Notes under the pieces: generated by a model | The model's input: the letters and a program-made list of their open reading frames with translations, nothing else | Told to the model about the DNA's origin: nothing | The model's database searches: none | Shown here: positions 1,574-26,086 of the stretch, piece after piece | Numbering within the stretch: position 1 is the first letter of the stretch | Layout of the letters: each line of letters starts with the position of its first letter | IMG/VR virus record: IMGVR_UViG_3300012928_003129 | Coordinates: 1 to 64,000 of that record | Origin: a virus | Reading direction: 5' to 3' (one strand) | Length of the DNA stretch: 64,000 bases | Position numbers and translations under genes: made by a program

Positions 1574-1995
1574 AGTATCTAATTTTCTTACTATTTTTTC
1601 TTGCTTGCGGCCCACATCATAAAAATCAAGCTGAAATTATCGTTACATATGACGGAATAGTCGAAGCACACCACCACCCAGACTATAATACAGAGGCAGA
1701 ATTCAAAAATGCCCTTAATGATAACAAGCATCCTGACTTTATCATCTTTTCTTCACCTTATTGTGGCGCCTGTACTGACTTAAAACACATTTTAAACAAT
1801 TTAGGTTGGCGTGACAAGGTAATTGTGTTAAATTTTCATGAAGAATGGGTGAATTTCATCGCTCAACACATTGGAATTAACGCTGTGCCTGCTATGATTA
1901 TAGATAAAGACGGCGGAGAAACAATCTCTCAGATTTATATTGGCTCTGGAGAGATAGGAAAACAACTTTTTGAACACTTGGAGACTAAAAAATGA
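1570..1995 (+). CDS. Thioredoxin-fold lipoprotein
   Basis: Lipobox-like FFLAC, a CGAC CxxC motif and AVPAMI cis-Pro loop. Confidence 0.7.
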   Translation: MKYLIFLLFFLACGPHHKNQAEIIVTYDGIVEAHHHPDYNTEAEFKNALNDNKHPDFIIFSSPYCGACTDLKHILNNLGWRDKVIVLNFHEEWVNFIAQHIGINAVPAMIIDKDGGETISQIYIGSGEIGKQLFEHLETKK

Positions 1996-2495
1996 AAGAA
2001 ATGAAGTTAATAATGGAAAATTTTCGCAAAAATATGACAGAAATGTTTAAAGGAAGAGAGTTAACCGACGATGAACTAGAAAAAATGGACCCGACGATGC
2101 GTGGATTCATCGAAAAGTCTAGAAAATCTAGGCAAGATTTTGTTACATATGACGATGCGCTTGAGGCAGAGAAAGAACAGCTTATAAATAACCCACAGAC
2201 CGCTGATGAGCAAGCAATGGGCGCAGTAATCACCAGATTAGAGAATGAATTTGGAGAAGACTTGGTTAGAGCCATGCATGAAATGCCGTATGAAGACCAA
2301 GAGACGGCTATTCAGAATTATTTTGAGGACGATCACCCAGAAGAAGCTCGAGCAAAGCGTAAGCATATTGAAAAAATAAGAAAATTGCTTAGAATTTCTG
2401 ATCCCGACGAAGATTACAAGCAAGATGATGAAATGGAGGCTTCTGATATGGATGACCCTCCCGGATATATGCCAGGACAGGGAGGAAATTACTAA
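1992..2495 (+). CDS. Acidic hypothetical protein with MKLIMEN-type leader
   Basis: N-terminus MKLIMENFRK matches MKLIMENWKR of ORF 21037. Confidence 0.75.
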   Translation: MKEMKLIMENFRKNMTEMFKGRELTDDELEKMDPTMRGFIEKSRKSRQDFVTYDDALEAEKEQLINNPQTADEQAMGAVITRLENEFGEDLVRAMHEMPYEDQETAIQNYFEDDHPEEARAKRKHIEKIRKLLRISDPDEDYKQDDEMEASDMDDPPGYMPGQGGNY

Positions 2496-2500
2496 AAATC

Positions 2501-2719
2501 ATGTGTATTATTTGCTTAGACATTGAAAAAAACAAAATTACTTCAAAAGATGCTCAATGGGCCTTGATTGAAATGGCAAACGAGCTTGATGAAGAGCATT
2601 ATTATGAAGTTTTAGAAAAAATTGAACACTTAGAAGCAAAAGATGACTTTAAAAGACTTTTAAACGACGCCAAAGTGGAGGATTTTCACGCGCCTCGTGA
2701 TCGGAGGGCCCATGAGTGA
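2501..2719 (+). CDS. Hypothetical protein (N-terminal CxxC)
   Basis: ORF beginning MCIIC, in operon context. Confidence 0.7.
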   Translation: MCIICLDIEKNKITSKDAQWALIEMANELDEEHYYEVLEKIEHLEAKDDFKRLLNDAKVEDFHAPRDRRAHE

Positions 2720-2946
2720 AAAAAATTGTAATTTTTGCATTAATTTTGCCTTTTTTAGCGAATGCTAACTCTCCAAAAACAAAATTTTATGATTTTGATG
2801 ATCTTTTGATCAATGGTGAGTATAAAAAACCTCAAGTCATGTACAATGATGTGCAAGCGAAAGTTAAGTTTGAAAGATTATTTAAAATCAAGAAAAATTT
2901 CCTTCCAAAGCTGCAAGGAACAAAAAGAGATACCTCTTTAAGATAA
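2716..2946 (+). CDS. Secreted GltF/CglF-like (adventurous gliding motility) small protein
   Basis: Signal peptide ending ANA, then YDFDDLLINGEYKKP...FERLFKIKKNF, resembling the GltF-family pattern as I recall it. Confidence 0.65.
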   Translation: MKKIVIFALILPFLANANSPKTKFYDFDDLLINGEYKKPQVMYNDVQAKVKFERLFKIKKNFLPKLQGTKRDTSLR

Positions 2947-2989
2947 TAAAACTAGTTATAGATACATATATTCAAGGAGTCCTTACACT

Positions 2990-4633
2990 ATGTCCGTTAA
3001 ATTTACTAAAAATCAGATAAAAAACATTATACTAGAAGAACACAGAAAGCTTTTATTAGAAATAAACCTCTCTAGTATTAAGACCGTAGTCAAAGCTTTG
3101 AGCGGTTCGGATACGCTAGCGACGAAGCTTACACAGGTGTCGACTTTATCTAAGATGTTAGGTAAAGCTGAAATTGATAAGATGGTCAAAATCATTAAGG
3201 GAAGCGATAACACTGCTTTAGCTTCAAAGGCCTTTGTCAGAGAGTTAGATAATCTTATAAAATCAATAGATGATCTTTTAAAAAGTAAAAACTTGGATGA
3301 TGCTAGTAAAAAAATATTGGAAGCAGCCAAGAAGAATGCCGCAGCTGCCAGAAAAGCTGCAGAAGACGCTGGTCAAACGGCTTTGGCTATACCTAAGAAA
3401 GGGACGACTAGTTTGGCGGTCCAGACGGGCAAAGGTGGTGCAAAACAAGCAGCTAAGATGCCGAAGAAGCAACGTCTTCTGGCCGTCGCCGCGCTTCTAG
3501 GCACAGCTGGACTGGTAACTTATCTTATTAGTTTGCTTAGTTCAACTGATGAGGCTCTTGCCGGGCCAAAAAGATGTTTAGAGCAATTAGCTAAAGCTGC
3601 AGGCTTTGTCGACTCAAGCGGAAATCCTGATCCGAAGGCCATGGCACAGGCTCTGAAAAAACCGGATGTGTACGCAGCTATAATGAATGCAGGAGCACTA
3701 AAAGCTTATGTTCAAAACGGTGTTCTAGATCAACAATGTGTGGCTATTTTGCAAGCATATTTACCTGCACCGCCTGCACCTGGTCCAACACCTGGTCCTG
3801 GTGGTCCGAATTATAAAGCACAGCAGCAAAGCCAATTTGGCCGTTGTCGCACTTATGCAATTATGGTTACCAAGGGCCCCAAGAATATGGCAAAGGCTTT
3901 TGTAAAGGATATGAAGCACCTTCAAAGAACATTGGTTGAACTTGGATACAATTTGGGAACTTTCGGTCCCAATGGCGACGGCGTAGACGGAGATTACGGT
4001 AGAGCTGGATCTTTGACGAGAAAAGCCATAATAGCTTTGCAAAAATCAGTTGGCCTAAAAGGCAGAAAAGCTGATGGTGTTTGGGGCAAAGGTACAAGTA
4101 CTGCTATAGAGGCTTCAGTTAAAGCCACCCAATCGAATAAGATTTATGATGCAATAAAGAAGACTCTAGTTGGTCCTCCTTCAAAGTGTGCCGGCACGCA
4201 AACAGGCGGTCAGGATGCTGAAACTGGAAATGTCGATACACAGCAGGCTATTCGAGCTTATATGACTGCTTATAACATAATAAGAGGCAAGATACTTAGA
4301 AACCTTGAAGCTAAAAATGTTCAAGCACGAAAAGGTAGGATAGCAACGACACTAATTAGTCCATTTCTTCCTCCTTTAAGAGCCCGTACAGGTTTTTACG
4401 CATTCGATGGCCAAAGCTACAGCACAAGTAATCCGAAGCTAGGGCAATTGCTAATGACTAAACTTAAGGATTTGAAGAATAATGCAGCTAAAGCAGAACA
4501 ATCACTTGGGCTTAAGGGCGGCGAAGTAACAAGAATTATAAGCAGAGTAGGTGATGAATTCTTAGAAAGCGTTCTACAAGAATCAAAATCCTATAATTTG
4601 GACTTTAGTAAGTATTCTAAGCTCTGGGATTAA
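2990..4633 (+). CDS. Late protein with TM segment and peptidoglycan-binding (PG_binding_1-like) domain
   Basis: LQRTLVELGY..GVDGDYG..TRKAIIALQ..ADGVWGKGT; Pro-rich linker; leader KNQIKNIILEE. Confidence 0.75.
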   Translation: MSVKFTKNQIKNIILEEHRKLLLEINLSSIKTVVKALSGSDTLATKLTQVSTLSKMLGKAEIDKMVKIIKGSDNTALASKAFVRELDNLIKSIDDLLKSKNLDDASKKILEAAKKNAAAARKAAEDAGQTALAIPKKGTTSLAVQTGKGGAKQAAKMPKKQRLLAVAALLGTAGLVTYLISLLSSTDEALAGPKRCLEQLAKAAGFVDSSGNPDPKAMAQALKKPDVYAAIMNAGALKAYVQNGVLDQQCVAILQAYLPAPPAPGPTPGPGGPNYKAQQQSQFGRCRTYAIMVTKGPKNMAKAFVKDMKHLQRTLVELGYNLGTFGPNGDGVDGDYGRAGSLTRKAIIALQKSVGLKGRKADGVWGKGTSTAIEASVKATQSNKIYDAIKKTLVGPPSKCAGTQTGGQDAETGNVDTQQAIRAYMTAYNIIRGKILRNLEAKNVQARKGRIATTLISPFLPPLRARTGFYAFDGQSYSTSNPKLGQLLMTKLKDLKNNAAKAEQSLGLKGGEVTRIISRVGDEFLESVLQESKSYNLDFSKYSKLWD

Positions 4634-4700
4634 CTTCTATTGTCAAACTACTAAAACAAAAACTACTTATATTGTATAATATGCAATATAGGTTTGTTTT

Positions 4701-7700
4701 ATGAAAAAAGTTGATCGCAAATTCCTCGAAGAACAAGTCAAAAAAGCTCTAAACGAGAAAGAAAAAGAAGAACAAAACTGGTTTATGAAAGCTTTAGCCG
4801 CGTCTGGTGAGGCCCACTCAGTTTCAGTTAAGGCACAGGCTGAGGCTGCCTACAAGATGGGTCCCATGATTTGGGAAATATTAAAGTCTTTACCTTTCGG
4901 CTCTCCACAGTCTTATGTTGATTTAATTAAGTGGGCTCAAGATACCGGGACCTACGGTATCGGCTCTCAGAAATATTACAAAAAAATAATAGATCTTCTC
5001 GGTCCGCTTCAAGATCCAGACGCCCGGGCACCTTGGGGCCAGCAAATGATAAGATTTGTAAATACTGCCCCAATTACTAAAGAAAATGCGTCCCAGATTA
5101 ATGTTGTTTTTAAAGAAGATCTTCAAAATGATTTTATAAAACTAAGAAATGATACAGCTAAGGCAATATATCTTGCAATTCAGGGTGGCAAAGATGTTGA
5201 AAAAGGCATATATGAAATACTGAGAGCGAAAACTTATGGATATGATCCGAATATTAGCGCCGAGGATGATTTCTTCAGCTCATGGTCACAAATTCGTGAT
5301 GCTTATGTTGGCCCTGAAGATGGTACTTTAGCTGATATAGCGGACGATTATAACTTTACAAAAACTTGGACAGATGGGCTTTGGGGCGCGCCCTTAAAAT
5401 TTGGCTTTATCAATTTGTTTAAAGACCCTAGACGATTTATGCAAAATGGAATGTACAAGGAATATAGCGAAGAGTTCGCAAAATTGCGTAATATGTCGCA
5501 AATCCAAGAAGCTGTTGAGAAGTTTATCATGATGCACTTTAATGGTCTTGAGGGCGCAAATTTCCCTCAAGCGTATCAAAGATTAATTGATAAAGCAGAA
5601 CTTCCTAGGATAGCAAAAGCAAAAGCAGCCTTTGAAACGTATAATGAATCTGGTCTTGCAGCATTGATTGGTGTTGCGGATATTTTAGTTTCTGTTCCTA
5701 CAACAGTAGTGTTTGTTGTAAGTATGTTGGGAGGGGTCACAATACCGGTTGGCTTGGCTGCAGCTACTGGTAAGAGAGCAGCTTTTTCTGCAGTTAGAAA
5801 ATCAGTACTTAAAAATACAACAAAGTTAAAAAATACAGCACAAAATGTACTAAAGGCTGAAAAATGGGGTATGACCATAAAAAGTATGGCATCTCTTAAG
5901 GCGCAATCTGGTCCATTAATCATGTTATTTGGCCAAATGGGTTGGGATGCTATTAAATCATATATAAACGACATCGATGACGAGTTTAAAAAATTCGTAG
6001 ATCTTTGTGAAGATCAGAGTGTTACTGCCGAGCAAAAGGCAGAATTTTATGATAATAATGTAAAACCCGCTTATGAGTATATTGCGCAGCAGCATGCAAG
6101 ATTATTTACTGCTGCTCAGTTTGATAAAGAAATCATTGTATCAAAAGTTGCTAAACCATCATACATTAGGAATTTATATATTAACTGTAAGCTATATGAA
6201 ATTCAAAAGATTAATGAAAATATTACTAAAGTCAACGCAGAAATGATGCAGCTCTCAGCCGCGATTCAAAAAATGTCTAAAGGTCTTGAAGATTTTGATG
6301 CAAATAACGCTAAGGTAGAACAAGCAATTAATAGAGCTGATGCGATATTAAATTCAGATACTAGTATGAAAATACCAGATCTAATCAAAACTCCGGTCGC
6401 TGTACCGAATATTGATAAACCAACGGCAAGTGACAAGCCTAAAAAAACAAATAATTTTGGTGGGGATGAAAAAACAAGCGATCAAATTTTAAAAAACATG
6501 CAAACATCATTTGGGTCAAATGAAAAAACAAGTAATCAAATTCTATCTGATATTGAAAATGCCCTGGGTGGTGCAATAAAAGAACAAGAAGAGACTCAAG
6601 TTATCTCTGTAAATCTTGGTTATAAAGATGCTTTGGAATATGCAAAAGGCACAGAAGGGTTTTCTCCCGAAACTACAAAAGCTAACATCGATAAGATAAA
6701 AAAATTAGTTCAAAGCAAAGGAAAACAAGTAAAATTTACTCCTGTTGCTGCTTTAACTGATGTCCCTGAGGGAGTCGACTCCAACAAGTTCAAAGAATTT
6801 GCAAAAGAAATAAATTCTCATATGCAAACCAAAAAAGTATCATCGATAACCAAGACCGCGCCCGCGGCGGGTGATAAACCGACTACTGATAAGGTTGATG
6901 CAACGCAACTTACCAAAGATGATATAATTATAGTTGGTGATAGTAATGCAGCTGCTCTAGCTTATTGGGGCAAACATAAAGGCAGGTCCAAATGGCCAGA
7001 AGATTATGTTAAGCACCCTAAATATGCAACGGGCGGAACTAGGATATATGTAGACTCAAAAACAAAAGAACCTCTAGAGCCTGCAATAGGGGCTGCCAAG
7101 ACCGGATATATATTGCAACGTTTGAAGATGTGGTACAAGGATAAGGGTGAGAACTATAGGCCTAGGATGGCCATTGTACATATGGGCTATAATGATAGAG
7201 AGCAGGCGCCGACGGAAGGGTTTGCAAATATACAAAAAACAGTTAACTTTTTGTCATCTAAGGGAGCGTCAGATATTAGAGTAGTCCTTCCAAAAGGTGA
7301 CCCAAGCCACAAAAAAAACGCAGATGTTGCAGAATGGATGTCAACATTATCAGATAGATTAGAAAATGAGCTTACAGGTGCAAAACTTATACCAAACAAT
7401 GGCCGATTTGGAAAAAAGAGCGATGGGTATCATTTTGTAAACAATCTTAAAATATACAATGATGCAATATCAGGTGTCACAGTAGCAGGATCGGCAAAAT
7501 CCAAACCTGCGACGAAAGCTGCAGTTACAAATCTCAGCAGTGGAGCTAAAAAGTATTATCCATTAATTAAAAGAGAGGCTGAAAAATTAGGATACCCCGT
7601 TTCAGTTGCAATGGGTGTTGCATACGCTGAATCTAATTTCCGTCCAAATTTAGTTTCTTCTGCAGGAGCAGTTGGGTTGATGCAACTAATGAAAGTAACC

Positions 7701-8875: not shown

Positions 8876-11800
8876 ATGCCTAATAAAAAAATTGAAAATT
8901 TATTAAACCAAAGAGATATAAAAGATTTAATAAATGAAAATATTATGTTGAGAGAATTTTCAATGTACGGCTGTGACGATCAACCCAGCAAAGTCCATGG
9001 ATACAATCCTTTTTCCAAAAAATGTATAGATATCACAAACTATCAGGGGCCCGATGCTCCCAAATCTATTCTAAGGCCAATAAAAAAGCCAGATAGAGAA
9101 GATCAAATTGCAAGTGTCACAGATAGTATTGGTGACTTCGCTGGATTTATATGGGACATTTATAAATCAGGAGTAGATTATAAAGAGATAGCAGATTGTG
9201 TATCAAATAATCCTGTTTTTTCTTTCTTGGGTTTGTTTTATGGAAGAGGAACAATAAAAATACTCCCAATGCTGGCTCAATCTTCTGGCAAGGCAATATA
9301 TTCTGCTTTCACAAAAACAGGAAAACTCCAAAATCAAATTGACACCTATGTAAGTGCTCGAAAAGGTACCTCGACAGGGTTGACAAATTTTCTTAAAAGA
9401 CTAGCAACTGGTGCGCTTTCGAGTGGTTACAAGGCAGGTAAATGGGGAACTGTTGCCGGTGTGATGGGTACGTACTTCATTTTAAACGCCGGAAGAAAAG
9501 AAAACCAAGGAGAAAATTACATGCCATGGGCCAATAAAGCATTGGACATCATGGAGAAAAATATATCTGGTGGGGATAGTAAGCAAAATTGGAAATGTTT
9601 TTTTGCAAGCGCGGTTACAGGCGTCGTCGCCGGAGTATTAATTAAAGGTGGGGCGCGAGGCCTTCTCAAGACCGCTAAAAATGTAAAATCTGGCCGTTGG
9701 AATGTTGCTGCAGACTTAATCAAATCTGCTCAAATGAGAAAATGGTTTGCCAATGCAATAAAAGACATAAAATCTGATCAATTGGTTATTTTTAAGGCCT
9801 TGCAGGAATCTGGTACGCTTCCTTCTAAAGTAAAGATTGTTGTTGACAATTCTTCTGGTCTTAATAGGTTAAAAGTTAAGGGTCTAGGCGATCAGCCGAT
9901 TAGAATACCATCTAGTGGCATGCCAGCAAGTTTGCAAAAATATGCTGTCAACGGTGAGTTGGTCTTAGATCCCAAATTATTAAAAGACGAACTGGTAACT
10001 GTTTCTGACGACATCAACAAAGCAGTACAGCAGTCATCAGGTGAAAGCTTAAGTTTACTCAGAAGTTCTAATTTTTATAAAAATGTAAAAGGCTTTAAAA
10101 AAGCAATGGAAAAATATGGAAACCTTCCAAGAGCACAGATTAGGTCTAAAGCGTTAAAAAATACTAGTGAAATTTTACAAGATTTATCTAAATCTCTAGA
10201 CTCGTCTTTACAGTCTGTTTCTCAATTACAAAAGAATGTACAAAAAGGAAAAGACCAAGTAAGAAAATTATTTGATGATATAGAGGGATTGGCAAATCAA
10301 AAGGGTTATGAAAAAATAGAGAAAGAAATTTTAGATTCTGCCACCAATATAAATGATGTTCAAAGAATAATTGATAGCGCGCTTCCGGGTATCGATAATG
10401 TTCCTACATCTTTCGTGGGCGGAGAAAGAGTCAATGTGAAAGAATTTGTTATAAACCACTTTAAAGAGACAAAAAAGTTGGATATAACAAAAAAAGGTAT
10501 CATTTCTGATATTGAGTTTGCAAGAAAGGCTATCTTAGACGATACCGGTGTTGTAAAATCGCTTTTTCCGGGCGGGAATGGTGCCGATGATTTGTCAGAC
10601 TGGCTAAGTAGTTCTGCCGGTGCGCCTTATAGAGACGTGTGGTCCAAACTTGACTCGAATGGAGATAGATTAGCAAAAATTGCAGCCACTATAGGCCCAA
10701 AAACGGCGACTGCGGTTAGATCACTATTTACTACCGCGGTGGTTCCAGTGGCGGCTTTCACACTTGGCGTTAACCTAGTATCTATGTTTTCAGCCAAAAA
10801 AATCGATGATAAAGAACAGCTAGATGAAATTGTTAGACTAATAGATGAGAAGCTAATTGAAACCAGTATTTCAAAGTACATGGATAAAGATGGAAATATT
10901 AAAGTTGAGACCCTTCTTTCAGATTTAATAAAAGCGCCTCTTGCAAACAAAGATTCTTTTATGTCTGATACAGTAAATTCACTAAAGCAGTTTAGAGATG
11001 CTCTAAAAACAAATAAAGAATATATTAAAGACATTAACAGCTTTACTAATGATGAAGAGACTTATTTAACAAAAGAATCTTTAAGAAGAAAAATAAAAGC
11101 AATTGTGAGAGGTACACTTTCCCCCAAAGGACAGAATACCGGACCTAAAAAAAATCAGACGTCGAACACGACTGGTCTTCTGTCTCAAATTCCGGAGGGG
11201 GATTTAAAGGCCAAATCACCTTTTAGCGTAAGTTTGGGTGCGCAAAATTTTCAAATTCAGTTTACTGATAAACATATCAGTATTGGAGAGAAAAAATTTC
11301 AGTTTTCTAAATTTGGTGTAGATGCTAACATAGAACAAGTAACAAAAAATAACAATAAAATAACAGCTAAACTTGTCGCAGGAATAATCGATGAGATTTT
11401 TGTATTTTCAGAATCAGACTTGCAATCACTTTTTCAGAAGGCTGTCTCTTTACAAACGGGTGAAAAAATATCAATTCAGGTTGGTGGCAAAACAGGAAAT
11501 ATTAAAAGAATTTCAGAAAATAGAGAGGTATTACAAATGAGCAAAAAAAATCTTAAACAACTGGTTTCAGAAGTTTTAAATGAAGCATACGGAAAATACC
11601 CGTACCATTCTAATGAACATACGGATGAAGAAGCAGACGAAGATTATATGGTAGAGTGGAATGCACTCGTAGATGAAGTGTGTGGAAATAAAAAGAAAAA
11701 TTTTGATGGTGACCCAAAAACTTTTGAAGACGCGGCAGTTGAAGTTGCAAAACTGTTCGTAAAAGACTCAGAACTTTTTAGAGAAGTATTAGAACTTGCT

Positions 11801-15649: not shown

Positions 15650-15680
15650 AACTATTTACATTTAGAGGTTTTTGTATAAG

Positions 15681-16997
15681 ATGATTGATAAATTAAAACC
15701 ATTATTGGGCAAATTATGTTCCTTTTCCCAGAAAAGACTAGGCTTTTCTCATCCTCCAAAACTTTTTTTAAAAAGCGATTCAGAGAATGCTGAAAAAACA
15801 TTGGGAAAAACAGCACATTATGATCCGAATAATTCCTCAATCACTCTTTTCACTACTGGAAGACACCCGAAAGATATTCTAAGATCTTTTTCGCACGAAC
15901 TAGTTCATCATGCACAAAATCTCAGGGGTGACCTAGCGCCGGAAAAAATGACCAGTACTGGTGCTAATTATGCCCAAGAATGTCCACACATGAGAAATAT
16001 GGAAAAAGAGGCCTATTTAAAGGGTAACATGTGTTTTCGTGACTGGGAAGATCAATATAAACTAACAGAATCGGAGTCAAAATTTTTAAAGGAGAATAAA
16101 ACAATGACCACAAAGATAACAAAGGACTTTTTAAAAGAACAGATAAAAAGTGCCATAAAAGAATTTGAATTAAGAGGGCAAGGAAAATATAGTGATTACA
16201 TGTCTAGCCTAGGCTCGGACTCTATCAAGTATCAAGGCACTGGTACACAAACCCCACCAGCGAAAAAGCCGGTTGCCAAAAAAAAGCCAGATCTTAGCAA
16301 CACTGTGATATCTCATTTACAGGATTTTAAAACTCACGTACACAAAAAATATGGAGTTATGCCAGACTTTTCAGACAGTGGTGGATTTAAATCTGCTTTT
16401 GCAGATGCTAAAGCATTGAAAGTGCCTTTCTTTTACTTTGGACCTGGTAAGTATAAAATTTATGCAACCGGTCTAGGAAAGGACCCACTCAGTCTAGATG
16501 ATCTTAAAGCTAAATATCAAGAATACGGCGATGAAGCTATGGCTCAGATTGAGCCTGAGATTGATAATTTAGCTGCTACATTGAACCCGAAAAAAGAGAA
16601 GCCCGTCGTCGGCTCGCCCTTAGAGGAGACTGATGAAATAGAAGAAGGTGGTTGTGGCAAAGGTGGTTTAGGTAGACGAACAGATGATAAAGTTAAAGAA
16701 ACTAAAGGCATTGAAGAAAAGAAAAAATGCCCGGGTAAAAGCTGCCCGGGCTGCCCGGAGTGTAAGCCAGGGCTAAAAAATGAACAAGAAGAGTTAGAAG
16801 AAAAGAAGACCAAGAAAAAGAAAAAGAAAAAAGGTAAATACGACGATGGCGATGGCAAAGATGAAAAGTGCGATTATGTTCCATGTAAAGAGTCTGTGAT
16901 TCAAACGCCGGAGCAGGAAAATACTCTTTATGAGCAAAGATTTACTCCAAAGAACAATAGACTATTTGAAAAACTTCTCCAAGAATGGACAAAGTAA
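15681..16997 (+). CDS. Zincin (HExxH) domain plus low-complexity Cys/Lys-rich module
   Basis: HELVHHAQ..MEKEAY; CPGKSCPGCPEC; internal SD+ATG at 16104. Confidence 0.7.
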   Translation: MIDKLKPLLGKLCSFSQKRLGFSHPPKLFLKSDSENAEKTLGKTAHYDPNNSSITLFTTGRHPKDILRSFSHELVHHAQNLRGDLAPEKMTSTGANYAQECPHMRNMEKEAYLKGNMCFRDWEDQYKLTESESKFLKENKTMTTKITKDFLKEQIKSAIKEFELRGQGKYSDYMSSLGSDSIKYQGTGTQTPPAKKPVAKKKPDLSNTVISHLQDFKTHVHKKYGVMPDFSDSGGFKSAFADAKALKVPFFYFGPGKYKIYATGLGKDPLSLDDLKAKYQEYGDEAMAQIEPEIDNLAATLNPKKEKPVVGSPLEETDEIEEGGCGKGGLGRRTDDKVKETKGIEEKKKCPGKSCPGCPECKPGLKNEQEELEEKKTKKKKKKKGKYDDGDGKDEKCDYVPCKESVIQTPEQENTLYEQRFTPKNNRLFEKLLQEWTK

Positions 16998-17011: not shown

Positions 17012-20000
17012 ATGGATAATAAATTGCTCTTAGAAGGTGGCGTCGGTGGACACATGAACCACCCTTATGACATAGATGATCTCACTTTTGGAGATCTAAA
17101 AGATATGCTAAGGGCTGCAGCAAATGGTGAACTGCAAGGATCCGAAAAGACTGACGGTCAAAATTTATATATAACTTTTGACGTAGAATCCCAAAAAGCA
17201 AAAGCAATTAGAAATCAAACCCAAATCAAAGCAGGTGGGCTGACACCCGAACAACTGGATGATTTCTTCTCCAGCCACCCAGCGCAAGCCCTAAGATACA
17301 GTTTTGTAGAGGCTTTATCAACTTTTGAGAATTTTGCTATAGAGCTGACGAGAGAGACACAGCTAGAAATCTTTGGACCTGATGGGGCGATTTATTTTAA
17401 CACCGAAATAATGAACCCTGGGACTCCTGGTTTTGATAAAGATGATCCTAGAGGCATGGGTACCAAGAACGTTATACCGTATGATAAAAAAACTATCCTT
17501 GTACACCCTTCTGGGCATAAAGAGTTCGAGAGAGAAACTGCAAAAGATTTAGAAACTAACCTCATTTCAAATTATAGAACACTTAAATCAGCATTAGAAG
17601 GTAAACAAGTAGAGGATCCGGGGATTTTTTCAATAGAGACGCATCCTCTTAGAAAATTACATCCAAAAGGGCTAGAAAAAGCAAATAACTTACTTCCTAG
17701 AACAATTTCACAAATTGACAATATTGTAAAAGATGCTAGCGCTACTGATGATACTCCTATTGTTAGATACGTTATAGATCAAGTCAAAGCTGATATAAAT
17801 ACTGCAACACCGGGCCTAAGTGAGGAGAGACTCGAAGACTTAGCTACAAAATTTCTAAAGTTATGTAAAAGAACGGATGGCGAACCCGGGTATCTGAGAT
17901 GTGGCGACAAGAAGAATAAAAAATTTATAAAACCAAACGAAAATATAAGAAACTTGATCGCTGGTCTGTCCGGAGATGAACTACAAGGAATAAAGTCTTT
18001 TGCATCATCATTTTCAGAAGGAAGATACCGACGACCTTTAGCCATGGCCCTTGCAGATTTTACTAATGCAATTCTTGATGGGTTTGACTCTTCTTTTATT
18101 TCTGATAATGAAAAACAATTAAATTCACTAAAGGGTGAACTTAGCAAAGTTGTGAAGCAAATTGCTAAATCAGACAATGAGGCTGCAAAAGATGGACTTA
18201 GAATCGAATTGGAGAAGTTGAAAAATATAGATAATATCAATACTCCTTCTGAGGGTTTTGTCTTTGACTTCAAAGGGGAAGAGTTTAAGTTCACAGGCGC
18301 TTTTTCGCCAATGAATCAAATATTGGGCATGCCTAAGTTTAAAAGATATGGAGAAATAGCCCCTATGGAGACAATAGCGGTCTTTCCTGGCTCTTTTAAG
18401 CCTCCACATAGGGGACACTTAGAAGTTGTTAAAGCAATCTCTCAAAACGCCGATAAGACACTCGTGATTGTATCTAGGCCAACACAAAATCAGAGAACTC
18501 TTCCTTTATCTGGAAAAATTATTGGATCCACAGAAGCCATAAACCTTATGAGAGCAATGCTTGAGGGTACTGGTCTCGAAGATAAAGTTGAAGTGTTGTC
18601 AGGGGCAGATGCTTCTCCGATGATGACTACGATAAAATACGTCACCTTTCCAGCGGATGAAGAAAATCCTCTTGTAGCCCCAGAAAATGCTGAGATTATT
18701 CTTGGTGTTGGAGAAAAAGGTGATGATGCTAAACGTTATTCTGGTCTCCCGGAAAAGGTTAGAGAAAAAAGGCCCGATTTGGATCTTGAGACTACTCCAA
18801 CCCCTGCAGTTTCTCATGATAAACAATATCTTTCTTTGCTTCAAAGTGAACAGTATTCAGATATTTTAGAGAAAATGCCAAGTAAAAGCTCAGGTGCTGG
18901 TATACAACTTTTTCATGCATCTGATATGAGATTTCTTATGGATTTGGCTGCACAGGATCTTAGAGCAGTAAACCTTCTTGCTGATTTTGTTGGAGGTATA
19001 GAAAAGGTGCCAAGTGTTTTAGATGCAGTTGGCATTGTTCCAGCGACACAGTCCAGCCCAGAAGAAGACCAAGTTGAAGAGCCGGAACTTGAAGGCCCAC
19101 CAGAGGATGAAGTCAATGCAGATGATCTTGCGGAGATTGTCTATGAAGAAACCATGAAAGTTTTCGAAGCATTCAAATCACAAAAAGCGCCGAAAGCTAG
19201 ACCTTCGAAGGGTAAGTTTCAGCGAAGAATGCGCAAAAGGCTTTCTAAGGCTCATAGAACCTATTTAGATATGGGCAGAAAAGATTTAACAAAACACGGT
19301 GGTGGTTTTAGGAAAAATAGAAAAAAAGATATTTCAAATGCTTTTTTGGCTGAGGATGAAATAGAGGAATTAAGTTCTGTTGCTTCCGGAGCAATACAAA
19401 TGGCCCCAGCAGTAAAGCGAGATTATAATGCTACAAGGAATGATAAAAAAATGAACAAAAAAGAACAAATACTTCGAAAGAAGATAAGAATCAGTCTTCA
19501 AGAATTCTTTAACACAAAATCAAAAGAGCATGAAACTACAGTTGCTAAAATACTTGAAGAGCACGAACTTAGGATGCAGTTGAGAGAGATCATTTTAGAA
19601 CAAACTCTTAATGAAGCAGAAGATCCCACAACTGATGTTCATGATAATACTGGCATTAACACTTTAAAAGATTTAATGAAAAACACAAACGTATTAGCAA
19701 CCTTAAGAACAGTTTATAAGACTTTAACAACTGATGAAAATCAAAAGAAATCTTTTAGAGCACACATTATAAAGTGGACTCAAGATACATTAGCGCCAGT
19801 CAAACTGAATGACACTGACGCTGAAGCTGTGAATGAACAGGTTGGTGTTGATATAGAAGGTGTAAATGATGATATGTTCATTGATGCTAGCGACGGCTCA
19901 GAAAAAGATAACCCTGATGTCCCTGAAGAAGAAAATGAAAAGATGCAAGCAATTTCCGGAGAAGATACCACTGGGCGAAATAAGGCCGAAAGAGTTTATC

Positions 20001-21010: not shown

Positions 21011-21036
21011 TTAGTTTTAACCGCGGAGGAAAATAA

Positions 21037-21441
21037 ATGAAACTTATAATGGAAAATTGGAAAAGGTTCATAAAAGAAGTCAAAGTCCCACAAGGTAAGG
21101 ACAGAGAATATTATATAGAAGACCCAAACTTATCTCTAACTGTAGAAACCAGCGATGGAAAGCAACATGTAATCAAAGCCTTAGAGATAGAAACAGGATG
21201 GTATGGAGACACCTCTCAGGGAGCCTTCAAATATTCGATAAATAACGAAGAATACACTTGGGAACTCACTTCAGGATGGTATCCTGACGGTGCGGCCTGG
21301 AGAATACTAGAACATCTGGGAGAGGACGGTTCTGAAAATAATTCTGATGAACCAACTGAAATAGAAGAGACCATAGAAAGATTTATAGAATCTCAAGTAA
21401 AAAGAAACCCCAATTACGAATTTGATGATGAATGGTACTAG
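21037..21441 (+). CDS. Hypothetical protein with MKLIMENW leader
   Basis: Motif at 21006 and SD GGAGG. Confidence 0.75.
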   Translation: MKLIMENWKRFIKEVKVPQGKDREYYIEDPNLSLTVETSDGKQHVIKALEIETGWYGDTSQGAFKYSINNEEYTWELTSGWYPDGAAWRILEHLGEDGSENNSDEPTEIEETIERFIESQVKRNPNYEFDDEWY

Positions 21442-21473
21442 ATTAAAACTAATTAAGATAGGAGGATATTACT

Positions 21474-21542: not shown

Positions 21543-21553
21543 GGAGATAAACA

Positions 21554-22068
21554 ATGCCAAAATTTTATAGACAAAATAAAAAGAGAATTGACCCTCGTTA
21601 CTTTTTAAACGAGACAACAAATAGAGATGAAAATATCAATGAGATTGATTTAGATTACGCATCCGACTTGGAATATCAATACAACCAAGCAAAGGAATAT
21701 GAAAAGAAGACTGAACAAGGATATACGGATAAACAAAAAGAGGACATGGAAACCTCTTTAGAGTTTAAAGTAATGCAACCAGAACGTGATGAAGTTTTAT
21801 CTCAAGATGACCAGATCAAATTTGCAGATGTTATGAATGCATCCATGAATGGTGATCTTAGCCCTGAGCAAATTAAGGAATTGATTCTTGCCACCGACGA
21901 CGACAACCTCGACAACCTGAAGAAAGTTGTAAGCAAAATCGCTGGAAGTGGACAACAAGGGACCGGTGCTGGTATCGACTTATCTAAGGTCGACCGAGAT
22001 CGCGACGGTAAAATATCTGCTGACCAATTAGCAAATATTGCAAACGCTATAAAAAAGAATCAAGCTTA

Positions 22069-22069
<1 letters not shown>
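21554..22069 (+). CDS. Hypothetical protein with C-terminal EF-hand-like loop
   Basis: DRDRDGKISADQL; leader RIDPRYFLNE. Confidence 0.65.
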
Positions 22070-22376
<307 letters not shown>

Positions 22377-22444
22377 CCAAAATTCACACAATTGACACAC
22401 AGTTTCCTGTAAGATAGGGTATACTTATCTGAAAAAGGAACAAT

Positions 22445-23380: not shown

Positions 23381-23393
23381 TACTATTTATTAT

Positions 23394-24254
23394 ATGAAGC
23401 TTATCAAGCCAATCGTTGGCGAAACTCCCCTTATAAAAATCTCAAGTAAAATTTATGCAAAATTGGAGACCTACAATCCTGCCGGATCTGTAAAGGACAG
23501 AATGATAACATATGTTGTCGACAGAGCACGAATGTTTGGAAAGATAAATGACAACTCAGTACTTTGCGATGCAACAAGTGGTAATACAGGTATAGCCCTC
23601 TCCATGACAGCAGCATCTATGGGTTTGCCTTGTTTGATATTTATGCCAGGAAATATGTCGGAAGAACGTAAACAAATGATGAAAATGTATGGAGCTAAAA
23701 TAATTGAAGCTCCGGACGATGATTTTGTAGGAGCAATCGCCATGCGTGATCAATACTTGAAAGCAAATGAAAATGCTTGGTCTCCAATGCAATTTAGCAA
23801 TCAAGAGAATGTACATTGCCACCAACACCAGACAGCGCCAGAAATACACAAGCAGGTTATACAAAGAAAATATCTTTGGTCAGCTTTCATCCATGGCGCC
23901 GGCACGGGAGGTACTATGGAAGGTATACGAAGATACAAAGAAATACAAAACTTAAAAACAAAACTTTGTCTTGTTCAGCCAGTTGAATCACCTCATGGAA
24001 TACAAGGTATAGCAGATGGTAAAGATTTTTTATTTAACTCTGAAGATGCAGATAAAATTATTCCAATTAAAACAGAAGACGCAATAAATAGGGCAAAGCA
24101 GTTTGCTCGTGAAACAGGTATACTAGTAGGCATTTCATCGGGCGCTAATATATTAGCATCGGAGAGATATGTCCAAAATAGACTAATGTCTGGAATAGTG
24201 GTAACAATGCTCTGCGATAGAGGTGAACGTTATATGTCTATTTATGGTAAATAA
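23394..24254 (+). CDS. cysK: Cysteine synthase (CysK/CysM family)
   Basis: NPAGSVKDR (PLP Lys), TSGNTG, GAGTGGT, GISSGA, DRGERY. Confidence 0.92.
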   Translation: MKLIKPIVGETPLIKISSKIYAKLETYNPAGSVKDRMITYVVDRARMFGKINDNSVLCDATSGNTGIALSMTAASMGLPCLIFMPGNMSEERKQMMKMYGAKIIEAPDDDFVGAIAMRDQYLKANENAWSPMQFSNQENVHCHQHQTAPEIHKQVIQRKYLWSAFIHGAGTGGTMEGIRRYKEIQNLKTKLCLVQPVESPHGIQGIADGKDFLFNSEDADKIIPIKTEDAINRAKQFARETGILVGISSGANILASERYVQNRLMSGIVVTMLCDRGERYMSIYGK

Positions 24255-24267
24255 CACTATTTAATAC

Positions 24268-24837
24268 ATGGACAAGAAAACATTAATACAAATTATCAAA
24301 GAAGAAGTTGAAAAGCTGCTCTCTGAGAAGAAAAAAGAAAAGAAACATGCCATGTATAATCCTAAAACAGGTAAGAAGGAAATGGCAGATGGTGAAAAGC
24401 ATAAGAAATTAGCAAAGAAAGGCTATGTTCACTTTGATCCAAAAAAGGTCATAGCGGCCACTGATAAGGAAGGCGGCGCCGCCGGCCTTGACGCAATAGT
24501 AAAACACACCAATGCTGATAAAGAAGAATTAAAAAAAAATATCACAAAAGTAAAAGGTATAGTAAAACATACTAAAGGTGATTATATCACAACAAGTACT
24601 GGCCGAAAAGTTGCTGAAGAAATAATAAAACAAGAAATTGAAGCCGTTCTTGATGAGAAACGAAAAAAACGTAAAAAGAAAAAAAAGAAAAAGAAATCTT
24701 CCGGGAAAAAAGATGCCTGCTACTACAAAGTAAAAAGCAGATATAAAATATGGCCCTCAGCTTATGCGTCCGGTGCATTAGTGCGTTGTCGCAAGGTCGG
24801 AGCAAAAAACTGGGGCAACAAGAGCAAAAAGAAATGA
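24268..24837 (+). CDS. Basic late protein with IIKEE leader
   Basis: MDKKTLIQIIKEE; poly-Lys; KDACYYKVK..WPSAYASGALVRCRK. Confidence 0.75.
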   Translation: MDKKTLIQIIKEEVEKLLSEKKKEKKHAMYNPKTGKKEMADGEKHKKLAKKGYVHFDPKKVIAATDKEGGAAGLDAIVKHTNADKEELKKNITKVKGIVKHTKGDYITTSTGRKVAEEIIKQEIEAVLDEKRKKRKKKKKKKKSSGKKDACYYKVKSRYKIWPSAYASGALVRCRKVGAKNWGNKSKKK

Positions 24838-25319
24838 AAAAACAAGAACTTATTGACATTATAAAAGAAGAGATTGAGATTATCTTATTGGAAAGGTGTC
24901 AAAAAGGTTACAAAACTCATCCAAAAAGAAAAACCAAAAAAATGTATGGAAAGACATACAGAAATTGTATAAAAGCTGAAGAAGCAAATGAGGAACCAGA
25001 TACAGACGAGGTTTTAGGCGAAAAGAAAAGTAAACGAGATGGAAAAGGATCCCGTAGCAAAGGTTATTCTCTTAGAGATTGGTTTAAAGGTGGTGGATGG
25101 GTCCAGACAGGTGGAAAGTACGACGGAAAACCTTGTGCAAAACAACCTGGACAAAAATCAAAACCATATTGCAGAGACCCTGATGATAGAGCTAAATTAA
25201 GCAAATCAGAGAGAGAAAAAAGAGTTAAAAAGAAAAGAAGAGAGGATGGAGATTCAAATAGACGTGGTCCCGCTAAGAACGTAAGTCAAAAACGTAAAAA
25301 AAGGAAGAGTAAAAAATAA
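24834..25319 (+). CDS. Basic late protein with IIKEE leader
   Basis: Start reassigned to the ATGA overlap (MKKQELIDIIKEE); SLRDWF..GWV..KPC. Confidence 0.75.
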   Translation: MKKQELIDIIKEEIEIILLERCQKGYKTHPKRKTKKMYGKTYRNCIKAEEANEEPDTDEVLGEKKSKRDGKGSRSKGYSLRDWFKGGGWVQTGGKYDGKPCAKQPGQKSKPYCRDPDDRAKLSKSEREKRVKKKRREDGDSNRRGPAKNVSQKRKKRKSKK

Positions 25320-26086
25320 TGAAAAAAATAAATATTAATATAACAGAAGGAGGTTGCGATCCTTGCAATGCTGCAGCGCCACTCCCAGAAGATCCAAAGA
25401 ACTATAAAAATGTACATAATGGCGAGGAGGCCAGAATGCACAGAACAACGCTTGCTCATCTTATGGCTGATGTAAAAGTTCTATTAGATTTGATAGATGA
25501 TGAAGATGATCTACCAGAGTGGCTAGAAACTAAGATTACTAAGGCAGGAGATTATATGTCATCCGCGGCACGATACATTGCCGGCAACGAAGCTAGAGAC
25601 CACGGACAACTTGAAGAAAAGAAAAATTGCGGATGCGACCAAGACCCTTGCATAACTTACGGAAAACAACAAATAAGTGAAGAGGTTATAGAAGAAGATG
25701 TTTGCAGCATCAATGATTATTTTAATCTTTATGAAGCACTTCAGGACGCTGTAGATGAAAATGGAAATACGCCTTGTCCACAATGTTTGTATGAAACACT
25801 AGTGGAGAATGACTCAGCACCAGTCGAAATGTTGGAAGAGGCTAAATATAAGGGAAAGAAAGTTAAGCTCGGAAAACCTCGCCGCGGCGGCTCTAAAAAG
25901 TTTTATGTTTACGTAAAGGGTTGCGCAAAAGATAAATCCCGTGTAACAAAAGTAAGCTTTGGAGATCCAAATATGAAAATAAAAAAGTCTAACCCGAAAC
26001 GAAGAAAGTCTTTCAGAGCGAGACACAAATGCGCAACAGCAAAAGACAGGTGCACTGCAAGATATTGGTCATGCAGAAAGTGGTAA
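25319..26086 (+). CDS. Late protein with basic C-terminal domain
   Basis: LPEWLETKITKA; KKFYVYV..SFGDPNM..SFRARHKC..RYWSCRKW. Confidence 0.75.
   Translation: MKKININITEGGCDPCNAAAPLPEDPKNYKNVHNGEEARMHRTTLAHLMADVKVLLDLIDDEDDLPEWLETKITKAGDYMSSAARYIAGNEARDHGQLEEKKNCGCDQDPCITYGKQQISEEVIEEDVCSINDYFNLYEALQDAVDENGNTPCPQCLYETLVENDSAPVEMLEEAKYKGKKVKLGKPRRGGSKKFYVYVKGCAKDKSRVTKVSFGDPNMKIKKSNPKRRKSFRARHKCATAKDRCTARYWSCRKW

What the first reader, a model, noticed from the sequence alone, without database searches (positions are those of the whole stretch)
1992..26086. Shared Glu-ending amphipathic leaders on unrelated late proteins: a putative capsid-loading tag system
Seen: MKLIMENFRK..E (1992), MKLIMENWKRFIKE (21037), KNQIKNIILEE..LLLE (2990), RKFLEEQVKKALNE (4701), DIKDLINE..MLRE (8876), TLIQIIKEE..LLSE (24268) and ELIDIIKEE..ILLE (24834). 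Internal copies include NLKQLVSEVLNE, DFLKEQIKSAIKE and QLREIILEQTLNE. Established: T4 internal proteins carry a capsid-targeting sequence removed by a prohead protease cutting after [L/I]xE. Inference: a portable tag loads varied cargo (muralytic enzymes, ligase/NTase, zincin, basic proteins) into the head for co-ejection.
Basis: partly seen in the sequence, partly recalled or inferred. Interest (0 to 1): 0.75.

Follow-up and report, generated by a model that had tools for sequence, protein, structure and literature searches.

The report
Head-loading address tags on phage proteins
Many unrelated proteins of this uncultured marine T4-type phage start with short tags that end in the cutting motif of the T4-type head protease; the tags most likely load ready-made proteins into the virus head, as phage T4 does with three small proteins, but no experiment has tested this.

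Summary
None looks like chance, because each is conserved in relatives while the cargo next to it diverges. They are not one shared motif. I count at least four leader classes: A (MKLIMENW-type), B (IIKEE..L.E), C (RKFLEEQVK..L.E) and a new class D (..IDPRYFLNE, gene 21554).

Classes A and D are portable. In IMG/VR they sit at the N-termini of 51 and 38 unrelated cargo clusters, and conservation stops at the final Glu. In the gene-24834 family the junction reads L-x-E just before the conserved domain. Two metagenomic members of that family carry a T4-type capsid targeting sequence instead.

This contig is only 42% complete and lacks the head genes. All 13 long related contigs I tested encode a T4 gp21-type protease, and their capsid protein has LRE|A where T4 gp23 is cut.

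The "internal copies" are starts of fused or nested modules. Two are preceded by a ribosome-binding-site-like motif plus ATG.

Verdict: a much enlarged, multi-class variant of the T4 capsid targeting system. Cleavage, packaging and ejection are all untested. This scan noted the MKLIMENW tag before on other genomes, and I found no paper containing the motif.

The parts
1992..2042 (+). Class A-variant leader MKEMKLIMENFRKNMTE of a 167-aa protein (gene 1992-2495)
   Evidence: Orthologs in L361, L362, L364 and L365 keep MK.MKLIMENF[RK]K.M..E while the following residues differ.
21037..21078 (+). Class A leader MKLIMENWKRFIKE of a 134-aa protein (gene 21037-21441)
   Evidence: Homolog P0003 keeps MKIIMKNWKNFIKE, and P0004 has a different N-terminal extension.
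2990..3061 (+). Class B leader ..FTKNQIKNIILEEHRKLLLE of a 547-aa protein with a peptidoglycan-binding domain and one hydrophobic segment (gene 2990-4633)
   Evidence: Pfam PG_binding_1. Orthologs keep a leader ending LL.E. A CTAGTTA motif lies 31 nt upstream.
4701..4757 (+). Class C leader MKKVDRKFLEEQVKKALNE of a 1383-aa SGNH-esterase / SLT transglycosylase protein (gene 4701-8852)
   Evidence: SLT domain. Pfam SGNH-type lipase families are precomputed for orthologs P0136 and P0137. In alignment A6, 13 of the first 19 columns are invariant, then none until column 54.
8876..8956 (+). Leader MPNKKIENLLNQRDIKDLINENIMLRE of a 1003-aa protein (gene 8876-11887). This is the weakest N-terminal case.
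   Evidence: L361 keeps the whole leader. L362, L364 and L365 keep only M.LNE or MLRE, directly before the conserved 'MYGC' core. Hydrophobic moment is only at the 41st percentile.
24268..24327 (+). Class B leader MDKKTLIQIIKEEVEKLLSE of a 189-aa basic protein (gene 24268-24837)
   Evidence: The cargo is about 50% identical to G007 gene 111512, which carries a class A leader. ACTATTTA lies 4 nt upstream of the ATG.
24834..24893 (+). Class B leader MKKQELIDIIKEEIEIILLE of a 161-aa basic, Cys-containing protein (gene 24834-25319)
   Evidence: 1070 homologs. Nearly all start with a leader ending hydrophobic-x-E just before the domain. Measured from the first Cys without forcing a motif, position -2 is E in 37/41 and position -4 is L in 33/41. 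P0092 and P0127 carry a T4-type capsid targeting sequence.
21554..21613 (+). Class D leader MPKFYRQNKKRIDPRYFLNE of a 171-aa protein (gene 21554-22069).
   Evidence: Only the first 25 residues match two G004 proteins. In IMG/VR there are 89 sites, 86 of them 8-25 aa after a Met, on 38 unrelated cargo clusters.
11537..11584 (+). Internal copy MSKKNLKQLVSEVLNE, which starts the C-terminal 116-aa module of gene 8876
   Evidence: The module was found in 141 cluster representatives. It is nearly always the extreme C-terminus of proteins of 59-1757 aa, or stands alone at 104-119 aa. It nearly always begins with Met after residues that, by inference from their usual codons, would spell a ribosome-binding-site-like AAGGAGGT in DNA. 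In the window, GAGAGG lies 9 nt upstream.
16104..16163 (+). Internal copy MTTKITKDFLKEQIKSAIKE in gene 15672-16997, directly after the conserved zincin-like domain (HELVHH)
   Evidence: Alignment A2. The Met is conserved, and AAGGAG lies 8-13 nt upstream in the window, G004 and G003 even though the residues there differ.
19574..19615 (+). Internal copy MQLREIILEQTLNE in gene 17012-20236
   Evidence: It lies about 40 aa into a module that is a separate gene in G003, G004 and G007. All four sequences have hydrophobic-x-E at this point, before a Pro-containing linker (A3). It is not amphipathic (6th percentile).
17012..17035 (+). Possible short leader MDNKLLLE ahead of the GGxGGHM start of the ligase/NTase-like protein
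   Evidence: G004 has MNRKLLNE-GG, while G003 and G007 start at MGG. This is weak and rests on sequence alone.
1274..1318 (+). Possible leader MTMNKILEEYILKNT.. of a 99-aa protein
   Evidence: MNKILE.YI.E is kept in L361 and L364. Not tested further.
27006..27665 (+). ClpP-family protease gene. It is relevant only to the rival degradation-tag reading.
   Evidence: Pfam CLP_protease, E = 1e-26. Present in 5/5 complete clade genomes.

Best explanation
The leaders are removable address tags (propeptides). Each is a short N-terminal peptide, mostly helical, that ends in Leu/Ile/Val-x-Glu.

The proposed mechanism has four steps:
1. During head assembly the tag binds the scaffolding core of the prohead, so the attached protein is built into the head.
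2. The T4 gp21-type prohead protease then cuts after the Glu.
3. The tag leaves, and the mature cargo stays inside the capsid with the DNA.
4. The cargo may enter the host with the DNA.

The phage uses several interchangeable tag classes (A, B, C, D). It also strings tag+cargo modules together in one reading frame, so some tags lie internally at module borders.

Shown here:
- The tags exist and are specific to N-termini.
- They are portable across unrelated cargo.
- Selection acts on the peptide.
- Conservation ends at the Glu.
- All long relatives tested encode the protease.

Inferred:
- binding to the prohead core
- cleavage
- retention in the head
- ejection
- that this incomplete genome also encodes the protease
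For: 1. Portability. MKLIMENWR occurs at 134 sites, all at ORF starts, on 51 BLASTP-unrelated cargo clusters. Class D has 89 sites on 38 clusters. The 32 leader-bearing proteins of four clade genomes fall into 31 cargo clusters.

2. Positions the search did not impose give x-[FY]-[LVI]-x-E, with E14 in 32 of 51 representatives. No conservation follows.

3. The junction in the gene-24834 family, measured from the domain and not forced, is L at -4 (33/41) and E at -2 (37/41). This is the T4 gp21 motif L/I-x-E (PMC9026906).

4. The same cargo carries different tags. Window gene 24268 has class B and its G007 homolog has class A. P0021 and P0027 carry A and B in tandem. P0092 (MKTYKEFILEA..) and P0127 (MKTFKEFIQIAE..) closely resemble T4 IPIII/IPII (MKTYQEFIAE) and IPI (MKTFKEF..), which I read from NC_000866.

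5. All six Leu codons and all six Arg codons are used in the tag, and the upstream DNA is diverse. Selection is therefore on the peptide.

6. Pfam PF03420 (gp21-type protease) is present in 13 of 13 long related or tag-bearing contigs. These include the closest relative G004, at 55% identity in the baseplate wedge protein. Smaller tag-bearing contigs are 30-35% complete fragments, and none is a counter-example.

7. The clade capsid protein has ..AKELLRE|A aligned with the T4 gp23 site FLTE|A.

8. Head-module proteins of relatives start with tag-like peptides: MKLLLEHWNRYLQE next to the protease gene, and MKKSDLKQLIKPLVKECIHEVLLEE just after it. T4 gp67 contains IDLIKEE...FLIE, and T4 gp21 starts ..LLIETW.

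9. Orthologs of genes 1992, 2990, 4701 and 8876 keep the tag or its L-x-E junction while the adjacent sequence diverges.

10. Tag genes share a CTA[TG]TTA promoter-like motif with baseplate, tail and head genes.

11. Virion context from cyanophages. The cyanophage fusion of the three basic domains (T4-GC119) is annotated 'structural protein' in the S-E7 record. A putative cytidylyltransferase was detected in S-SM1 virions (PMC3037559).
Against: - There is no virion proteomics and no cultured close relative. The nearest capsid protein matches are LR756508, Mel-JY01, RM378 and immuto, at 33-48% identity.
- The protease and head genes are not on this contig.
- The window's leaders are heterogeneous. 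A profile built from one family does not find the others.
- The class C core 8-mer KFLEEQVK gave only 7 IMG/VR hits, none a credible N-terminal leader, so portability of class C is not shown there.
- Two of the ten peptides are not amphipathic.
- The zincin and NTase domains lie upstream of their 'internal' tags, so N-terminal targeting cannot explain how they would be loaded.
- Three of the cargoes are very large proteins with hydrophobic segments, which could instead be tail or membrane proteins.
- A ClpP-family protease is also a core gene of the clade, so co-occurrence does not single out gp21.
Confidence: 0.6

Rival explanations
1. The peptides are protease-removed propeptides, but they are not delivery tags. 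Either the proteins are prohead-core or scaffold components that are degraded and expelled, as T4 gp22, gp67 and gp68 are, or the propeptide only keeps enzymes inactive until head maturation. Nothing is ejected into the host.
For: T4 core proteins gp67, gp68 and gp22 have similar N-terminal hydrophobic-x-E peptides. Tag-like peptides sit on head-module proteins of relatives. Many cargoes are small, acidic or basic, and have no recognisable domain.
Against: Cargo includes enzymes with no obvious assembly role: C5 DNA methylase, GNAT, pentapeptide-repeat protein, M23 peptidase, amidase and 2H phosphoesterase. The cargo set turns over quickly between close relatives, as the variable T4 internal proteins do (PMC3012670). 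That is unlike a conserved scaffold.
Confidence: 0.15
2. The N-terminal peptides are recognition tags for a Clp-type protease. The phage's own ClpP homolog would work with a host unfoldase to give timed turnover of these proteins.
For: Gene 27006 is a ClpP-family protease, present in 5/5 complete clade genomes. A tmRNA with an ..ALAA tag lies at 22069-22376. From memory, not checked here, class A (Met-basic-three hydrophobic-x5-hydrophobic) resembles a published ClpX N-terminal recognition motif.
Against: A degradation tag has no need for the conserved terminal L-x-E, or for conservation that stops exactly at the Glu. Class D is basic and has a different shape. Members of the same cargo family carry a T4-type capsid targeting sequence. 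Tags recur at internal module borders.
Confidence: 0.07
3. For the three large tandem proteins (genes 2990, 4701 and 8876), the N-terminal helix serves another assembly route. These would be tail-associated, tape-measure-like or membrane-inserted muralytic proteins, not head cargo.
For: All three have hydrophobic segments, seen in the translations. The domains found are a peptidoglycan-binding domain, an SGNH esterase and an SLT transglycosylase. PHROG matches to the SLT part include 'lytic tail protein' as well as 'internal virion protein with endolysin domain'.
Against: Their leaders are far better conserved than the flanking sequence and end in L-x-E in every ortholog. The leader of gene 2990 is a typical class B tag. 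The genes lie among other tag genes, far from the baseplate and tail module at 48-76 kb.
Confidence: 0.1
4. There is no common function. The list mixes unrelated N-terminal helices from an AT-rich genome rich in Lys, Glu, Ile and Leu, where hydrophobic-x-E is frequent.
For: hydrophobic-x-E occurs 538 times in the contig proteome against 473 in shuffles. The cross-family profile test failed. The class C core 8-mer is not widespread.
Against: The N-terminal zone is 13-55 times denser in class A/B patterns than protein interiors. N-terminal sharing far exceeds the controls. There is a large excess of exact 9-mers at ORF starts on unrelated cargo. Every listed leader is conserved in orthologs.
Confidence: 0.05

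Closest known systems
Capsid targeting sequence (CTS) of phage T4 internal proteins IPI, IPII and IPIII (and the Alt propeptide), removed by prohead protease gp21
   Same: It is a short N-terminal peptide on otherwise unrelated, fast-evolving proteins, and it ends in L/I-x-E. T4-family head genes are present in all long relatives tested. Two metagenomic members of the window's basic-protein family carry a T4-type CTS (MKTYKEFILEA, MKTFKEFIQIAE).
   Different: The window's tags are 14-27 residues long and have different sequences. There are at least four classes in one genome, against essentially one in T4. Relatives carry about ten or more tagged genes each, against three internal proteins plus Alt in T4. 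The window's cargoes reach 1383 aa, and relatives tag enzymes such as a DNA methylase, an M23 peptidase and an amidase. Tags also recur internally at module borders. Nothing has been shown experimentally.
T4 prohead core and shell propeptides (gp67, gp68, gp22, gp24, gp23 delta piece, gp21 N-terminus)
   Same: Class B resembles the gp67 segment IDLIKEE...FLIE. Class A resembles the gp21 N-terminus ..LLIETW and gp23 ..LLNKWKPLLE. The clade capsid protein aligns LRE|A with the T4 site FLTE|A.
   Different: Those are conserved structural proteins. Here the peptides sit on variable accessory cargo. The resemblances are short and were judged by eye, with no statistics.
Propeptides of head and ejection proteins in giant phages phiKZ, 201phi2-1 and SPN3US (protease gp175 / gp245)
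   Same: Many head-internal proteins, some of them large enzymes, are processed after Glu by a diverged gp21 homolog, often at several sites (PMC9026906; abstracts).
   Different: Their motif is S/A-x-E, with a small residue at P3. Here P3 is Leu, Ile or Val. The reviews I read describe no strongly conserved, portable 14-residue tag for them.
Cargo-loading peptides of encapsulins and scaffold-fusion packaging in P22 (functional analogy, from general knowledge)
   Same: A short terminal peptide is enough to direct foreign cargo into an HK97-fold shell.
   Different: Those peptides are C-terminal and are not removed by a maturation protease. They are unrelated in sequence, and I did not examine them here.

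Membership tests
T4-type capsid targeting sequence / gp21-processed propeptide system | Tag lies at the extreme N-terminus of otherwise unrelated proteins | tested here: met
T4-type capsid targeting sequence / gp21-processed propeptide system | Tag ends in the gp21 cleavage motif L/I-x-E at the tag/cargo junction | tested here: met
   Class A: position 12 is L/V/I in 36/51 and E14 in 32/51. Gene-24834 family: L at -4 in 33/41, E at -2 in 37/41. All gene-4701 orthologs end [LI]-x-E.
T4-type capsid targeting sequence / gp21-processed propeptide system | The genome encodes a gp21-type (Peptidase_S77) prohead protease | tested here: inconclusive
   Not found on this 76-kb contig, which is 42% complete. 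Present in 13/13 long relatives or tag-bearing contigs and in the distant cultured relatives.
T4-type capsid targeting sequence / gp21-processed propeptide system | Sequence homology of the tag to the T4 CTS MKTYQEFIAE | tested here: not met
   The window's tags have different sequences. Only the metagenomic relatives P0092 and P0127 of the 24834 family carry a T4-like CTS. The window therefore 'works like' the T4 CTS but is not a homologous member of it.
T4-type capsid targeting sequence / gp21-processed propeptide system | Tag is removed from the protein found in mature heads | not testable with these tools
   This needs virion mass spectrometry or N-terminal sequencing.
T4-type capsid targeting sequence / gp21-processed propeptide system | Tag alone is enough to package a foreign protein | not testable with these tools
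   This needs a tag-reporter packaging assay.
phiKZ / SPN3US-type head protein processing | Cleavage motif S/A-x-E (small residue at P3) | tested here: not met
   P3 is Leu, Ile or Val.
Clp protease N-terminal degradation tag | Recognition by ClpX or ClpA and degradation by ClpP | not testable with these tools
   Only co-occurrence could be tested. ClpP is present in the window and in 5/5 complete clade genomes. The motif resemblance is from memory.

The most novel reading that the evidence does not exclude
An abundant, uncultured marine Far-T4 phage clade uses a combinatorial address-label system. It has at least four interchangeable N-terminal tag classes, tandem tag+cargo polyproteins, and a widespread C-terminal module with its own internal start. 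Together these load dozens of fast-turning-over proteins into the head for delivery with the DNA, including large muralytic proteins with hydrophobic segments, DNA methylases and DNA mimics. If so, the whole injected protein arsenal could be read from sequence alone.
Probability: 0.35. Interest if true: 0.75.

Novelty: new variant of a known kind. Interest (0 to 1): 0.55.

Why it matters
If the tags work as inferred, packaged and probably injected proteins of a very common group of ocean phages could be listed from genome sequence alone. In T4, proteins delivered this way include counter-defence factors: IPI* blocks a restriction enzyme. The tagged set here, with methylase, pentapeptide-repeat, acetyltransferase and muralytic proteins, would then be a catalogue of first-minute host-takeover and anti-defence candidates.

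The tags would also offer new, compact packaging signals for loading foreign proteins into T4-type capsids. The idea itself is not new: reviews of T4 already suggest that the capsid targeting sequence lets T4-like phages package varied proteins. What would be new is the scale, the several tag classes and the polyprotein layout.

Tried and rejected
- A position matrix built only from homologs of gene 24834 did not recover the other window leaders. I therefore dropped the idea of one homologous tag.
- The back-translated class C core KFLEEQVK gave only 7 IMG/VR hits, which look like chance.
- The search for related loci in IMG/VR found no relatives of genes 4701 or 8876. Relatives came from the protein collection and from one metagenome scan.
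- The ENW[RKQ] pattern is not enriched in Mel-JY01, immuto or T4. MENW[RK] is absent from cyanophages S-SM1 and S-RIM50. Class A is therefore clade-specific.
- ClpP co-occurrence could not separate the rival reading, because ClpP is in 5/5 complete clade genomes.
- The AlphaFold2 model of gene 24834 shows the tag as a helix (residues 3-24) and a disordered linker at 52-65. It has no PDB match, so the cargo fold stays unknown.
- A search of the Sullivan 2010 supplements for T4-GC119 in the S-SM1 virion table found nothing usable.
- No paper contains the motif strings.
I dropped that step, which compared pairwise identity of the leader with that of the next 20 residues. The invariant-column count of alignment A6 stands in for one family.

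Full report
**What the window is.** The window is the first 64 kb of a 76,181-bp viral contig, which CheckV estimates as 42% complete. Almost all genes lie on the + strand. The contig carries:
- baseplate genes (gp25-like and gp6-like) and giant structural proteins at 48-76 kb
- a sugar-gene island
- PhoH, a ClpP homolog, TilS with a tRNA, and a tmRNA

The baseplate wedge protein has 341 relatives in IMG/VR. The closest is G004 (121 kb, 55% identity). G004's major capsid protein best matches LR756508, Microcystis phage Mel-JY01, Rhodothermus phage RM378 and Flavobacterium phage immuto, at 33-48% identity. This places the phage in an uncultured 'Far-T4' lineage with no close cultured member, so no virion proteomics exists for it.

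**The observation.** A pattern fitted to them gives 7 hits against 0.3 expected, but that test is circular. A non-circular test failed: a position matrix trained only on homologs of gene 24834 does not rank the other window leaders. The peptides are therefore not one homologous motif. I sort them into classes:
- Class A: MKLIMENW/F.. (genes 1992 and 21037)
- Class B: ..IIKEE...L.E (genes 2990, 24268 and 24834)
- Class C: RKFLEEQVK..L.E (gene 4701, with a look-alike inside gene 15672)
- Class D, new: M..FYRQNKKRIDPRYFLNE (gene 21554)

Most are amphipathic as helices, but two are not.

**Class A is a portable tag.**
- All 134 sites are at ORF starts.
- The sequence after residue 16 falls into 51 clusters with no BLASTP link.
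- Positions the search did not impose give x-[FY]-[LVI]-x-E, with Glu at position 14 in 32 of 51 representatives. After that nothing is conserved.
- All six Leu and all six Arg codons are used, and the upstream DNA is diverse, so selection acts on the peptide.
- Recognisable cargo domains include M23 peptidase, amidase_2, pentapeptide repeats, C5 DNA methylase, GNAT, a 2H/CPD phosphoesterase and a cytidylyltransferase-like fold. Most cargoes match nothing.
- No paper in the library contains the motif strings.

**Class D behaves the same way.** It has 89 sites. Of these, 86 lie 8-25 residues after a Met, and 66 lie exactly 11 residues after. The cargo falls into 38 unrelated clusters.

**Within-genome tests.** An unbiased count of protein pairs sharing at least 7 of 14 N-terminal residues gives the following:

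| Genome | Pairs | Control windows further in |
|---|---|---|
| G000 | 2 | 0 |
| G004 | 9 | 0-2 |
| G007 | 28 | 2 |
| G003 | 44 | 2-3 |

A few of these pairs are true paralogs or signal peptides. Class A/B patterns are 13-55 times denser in the N-terminal zone than in protein interiors. Many of the internal hits are second or third modules inside tag-bearing ORFs; for example G007 gene 109460 has three copies. The 32 tag-bearing proteins of these four genomes form 31 cargo clusters. The single link joins window gene 24268 (class B) to G007 gene 111512 (class A), which is a tag swap on the same cargo.

**The basic-protein family gives the tightest link to T4.**
- Gene 24834 has 1070 homologs. 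Nearly all begin with a leader that ends hydrophobic-x-E directly before the conserved domain.
- Measured from the first conserved Cys, with no motif imposed, position -2 is Glu in 37 of 41 unique leaders and position -4 is Leu in 33 of 41. This is the L/I-x-E motif of T4 gp21 (PMC9026906).
- Some members carry class A and class B in tandem (P0021, P0027).
- Two members start MKTYKEFILEA.. and MKTFKEFIQIAE... These are close to the T4 capsid targeting sequences I read from NC_000866: IPIII and IPII MKTYQEFIAE, IPI MKTFKEF...
- In multi-domain members a leader-like segment ending L-x-E precedes each further domain (P0063, P0065). Gene 24834 itself has a conserved ..L[GD]E between its two mini-domains.
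- T4-like cyanophages fuse the three domains of genes 24834, 24268 and 25319 into one protein between g16 and g17 (T4-GC119). The S-E7 record annotates it 'structural protein'.

**The protease.** This contig lacks PF03420 and PF07068. Every long relative or tag-bearing contig I tested has a gp21-type protease, 13 of 13, and so do the distant cultured relatives. Tag-bearing contigs of 55-63 kb are 30-35% complete fragments, so none is a counter-example. In the relatives:
- The capsid protein reads ..LLTKWEKTGLLEG...AKELLRE|ASSMAAGD, and this Glu aligns with the T4 gp23 site FLTE|A.
- Head-module proteins begin with tag-like peptides: MKLLLEHWNRYLQE beside the protease gene, and MKKSDLKQLIKPLVKECIHEVLLEE just after it.
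- For comparison, T4 gp67 contains IDLIKEE...FLIE, T4 gp21 starts ..LLIETW, and gp24 and gp22 start MAKINELLRE and MLKEQLIAE.

**The large cargoes.** Orthologs of gene 4701 (60, 39 and 29% identity) keep MK[KQ]V[DN]RKFLEEQVK..[LI].E. Thirteen of the first 19 alignment columns are invariant, and then none is until column 54. Five syntenic metagenome loci show the following:
- The leaders of genes 1992, 2990 and 4701 are kept.
- For gene 8876, an L-x-E lies directly before the conserved core, although the leader shrinks from 27 residues to 4-5.

These three tandem proteins carry hydrophobic segments and muralytic or peptidoglycan-binding domains. A tail or membrane role cannot be excluded for them.

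**The 'internal copies'.**
- Gene 17012 is two genes in G003, G004 and G007. Its internal peptide lies about 40 residues into the second module, and all four sequences have hydrophobic-x-E there.
- In gene 15672 the peptide follows the conserved zincin-like domain and starts with a conserved Met. AAGGAG lies 8-13 nt upstream in three orthologs even where the encoded residues differ, which points to an internal translation start.
- The last 116 residues of gene 8876 form a module found in 141 cluster representatives. It is nearly always at the extreme C-terminus of proteins of 59-1757 aa, or stands alone. It nearly always begins with Met after residues that, by inference from their usual codons, would spell a ribosome-binding-site-like AAGGAGGT.

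So the internal copies are the starts of fused or nested modules.

**Timing.** CTA[TG]TTA lies within 40 nt upstream of gene starts far more often than expected: 10 of 17 occurrences in G000 and 18 of 33 in G004, against about 3%. It precedes baseplate, tail and head genes as well as tag genes (2990, 15672 and 24268, and several in G004). It also precedes a Nudix gene and a cysteine synthase gene. 'Late' is therefore plausible but not shown.

**Rivals.**
- A Clp degradation-tag reading cannot be separated by co-occurrence, because ClpP is a core gene of the clade. It does not explain the conserved L-x-E end, the T4-type capsid targeting sequence on the same cargo, or the internal junction copies.
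- A reading of 'propeptide but not delivered' remains open.
- Chance is excluded by the comparative data.

**Relation to what is known.** A conserved capsid targeting sequence on diverse T-even internal proteins is established (PMC3012670). One review already suggests it lets T4-like phages package varied proteins (PMC9026906). This case is a much enlarged, multi-class variant. It works like the T4 capsid targeting sequence, but its tags are not homologous in sequence to the T4 one. Earlier notes of this scan report the same MKLIMENW tag, and the polyprotein of basic Cys peptides, on other genomes. They agree with what I tested here.

Noticed in passing
window 11537-11887: The C-terminal 116-aa module of gene 8876 (a helix ..LV.EVLNE, then GYGKYPY, then an acidic tail) occurs in 141 cluster representatives. 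It is nearly always the extreme C-terminus of very different proteins (59-1757 aa), or stands alone at 104-119 aa. It nearly always starts with Met after residues that, by inference from their usual codons, would spell AAGGAGGT. It may be a nested gene, a mobile cassette or a C-terminal targeting domain.
   Followed up: partly
window 16080-16106; G004 and G003 orthologs: A ribosome-binding-site-like AAGGAG is conserved 8-13 nt upstream of an internal in-frame ATG of the zincin-like gene, although the encoded residues differ (K-E-N versus K-G-A). This suggests a second, shorter product that starts with the leader.
   Followed up: partly
window 17012-20236: The 1074-aa ligase/NTase-like ORF corresponds to two adjacent genes in G003, G004 and G007. 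In the window they are fused in frame, with a Met (aa 814) where the second gene starts in the relatives.
   Followed up: partly
window 24268-26086; cyanophage loci L001, L002, L272: The three neighbouring genes 24268, 24834 and 25319 each hold one domain of a single fused protein in T4-like cyanophages (T4-GC119, between g16 and g17). Parts of it are about 90% identical. The cyanophage form has L-x-E-like sites between the domains and no N-terminal tag.
   Followed up: partly
window 27006-27665: A ClpP-family protease gene is a core gene of this clade (5/5 complete genomes) alongside the gp21-type head protease. Its role is unknown.
   Followed up: partly
window 22069-22376: A phage-encoded tmRNA with tag peptide ANDDVETFEDFALAA starts right at the stop codon of the class D-tagged gene 21554-22069.
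   Followed up: no
window 378, 2952, 12721, 13917, 15441, 15652, 23383, 24257, 60046: A CTA[TG]TTA motif lies 4-31 nt upstream of start codons. Several of these would give nearly leaderless mRNAs. In G004 it also precedes structural genes, so it is a likely promoter of one temporal class.
   Followed up: partly
metagenome scan: 509 metagenome stretches match the class C leader patterns (MK[KQ]V[DN]RKF or LEEQVK[KQ][AT]), but only 6 encode relatives of gene 4701. Class C may sit on other cargo there, but the stretches were not returned.
   Followed up: no
LR756508.1 (484-kb uncultured phage): The ENW[RKQ] coding pattern occurs 11 times on the forward strand, against 2 in the reversed control. 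This hints at a related tag in a megaphage.
   Followed up: no
window 24834-25319: In the AlphaFold2 model the tag is a helix (residues 3-24), the linker at 52-65 is disordered, and residues 70-140 form a confident domain (pLDDT 83-89). Foldseek finds no PDB match. The fold of this very widespread basic Cys protein is unknown.
   Followed up: yes
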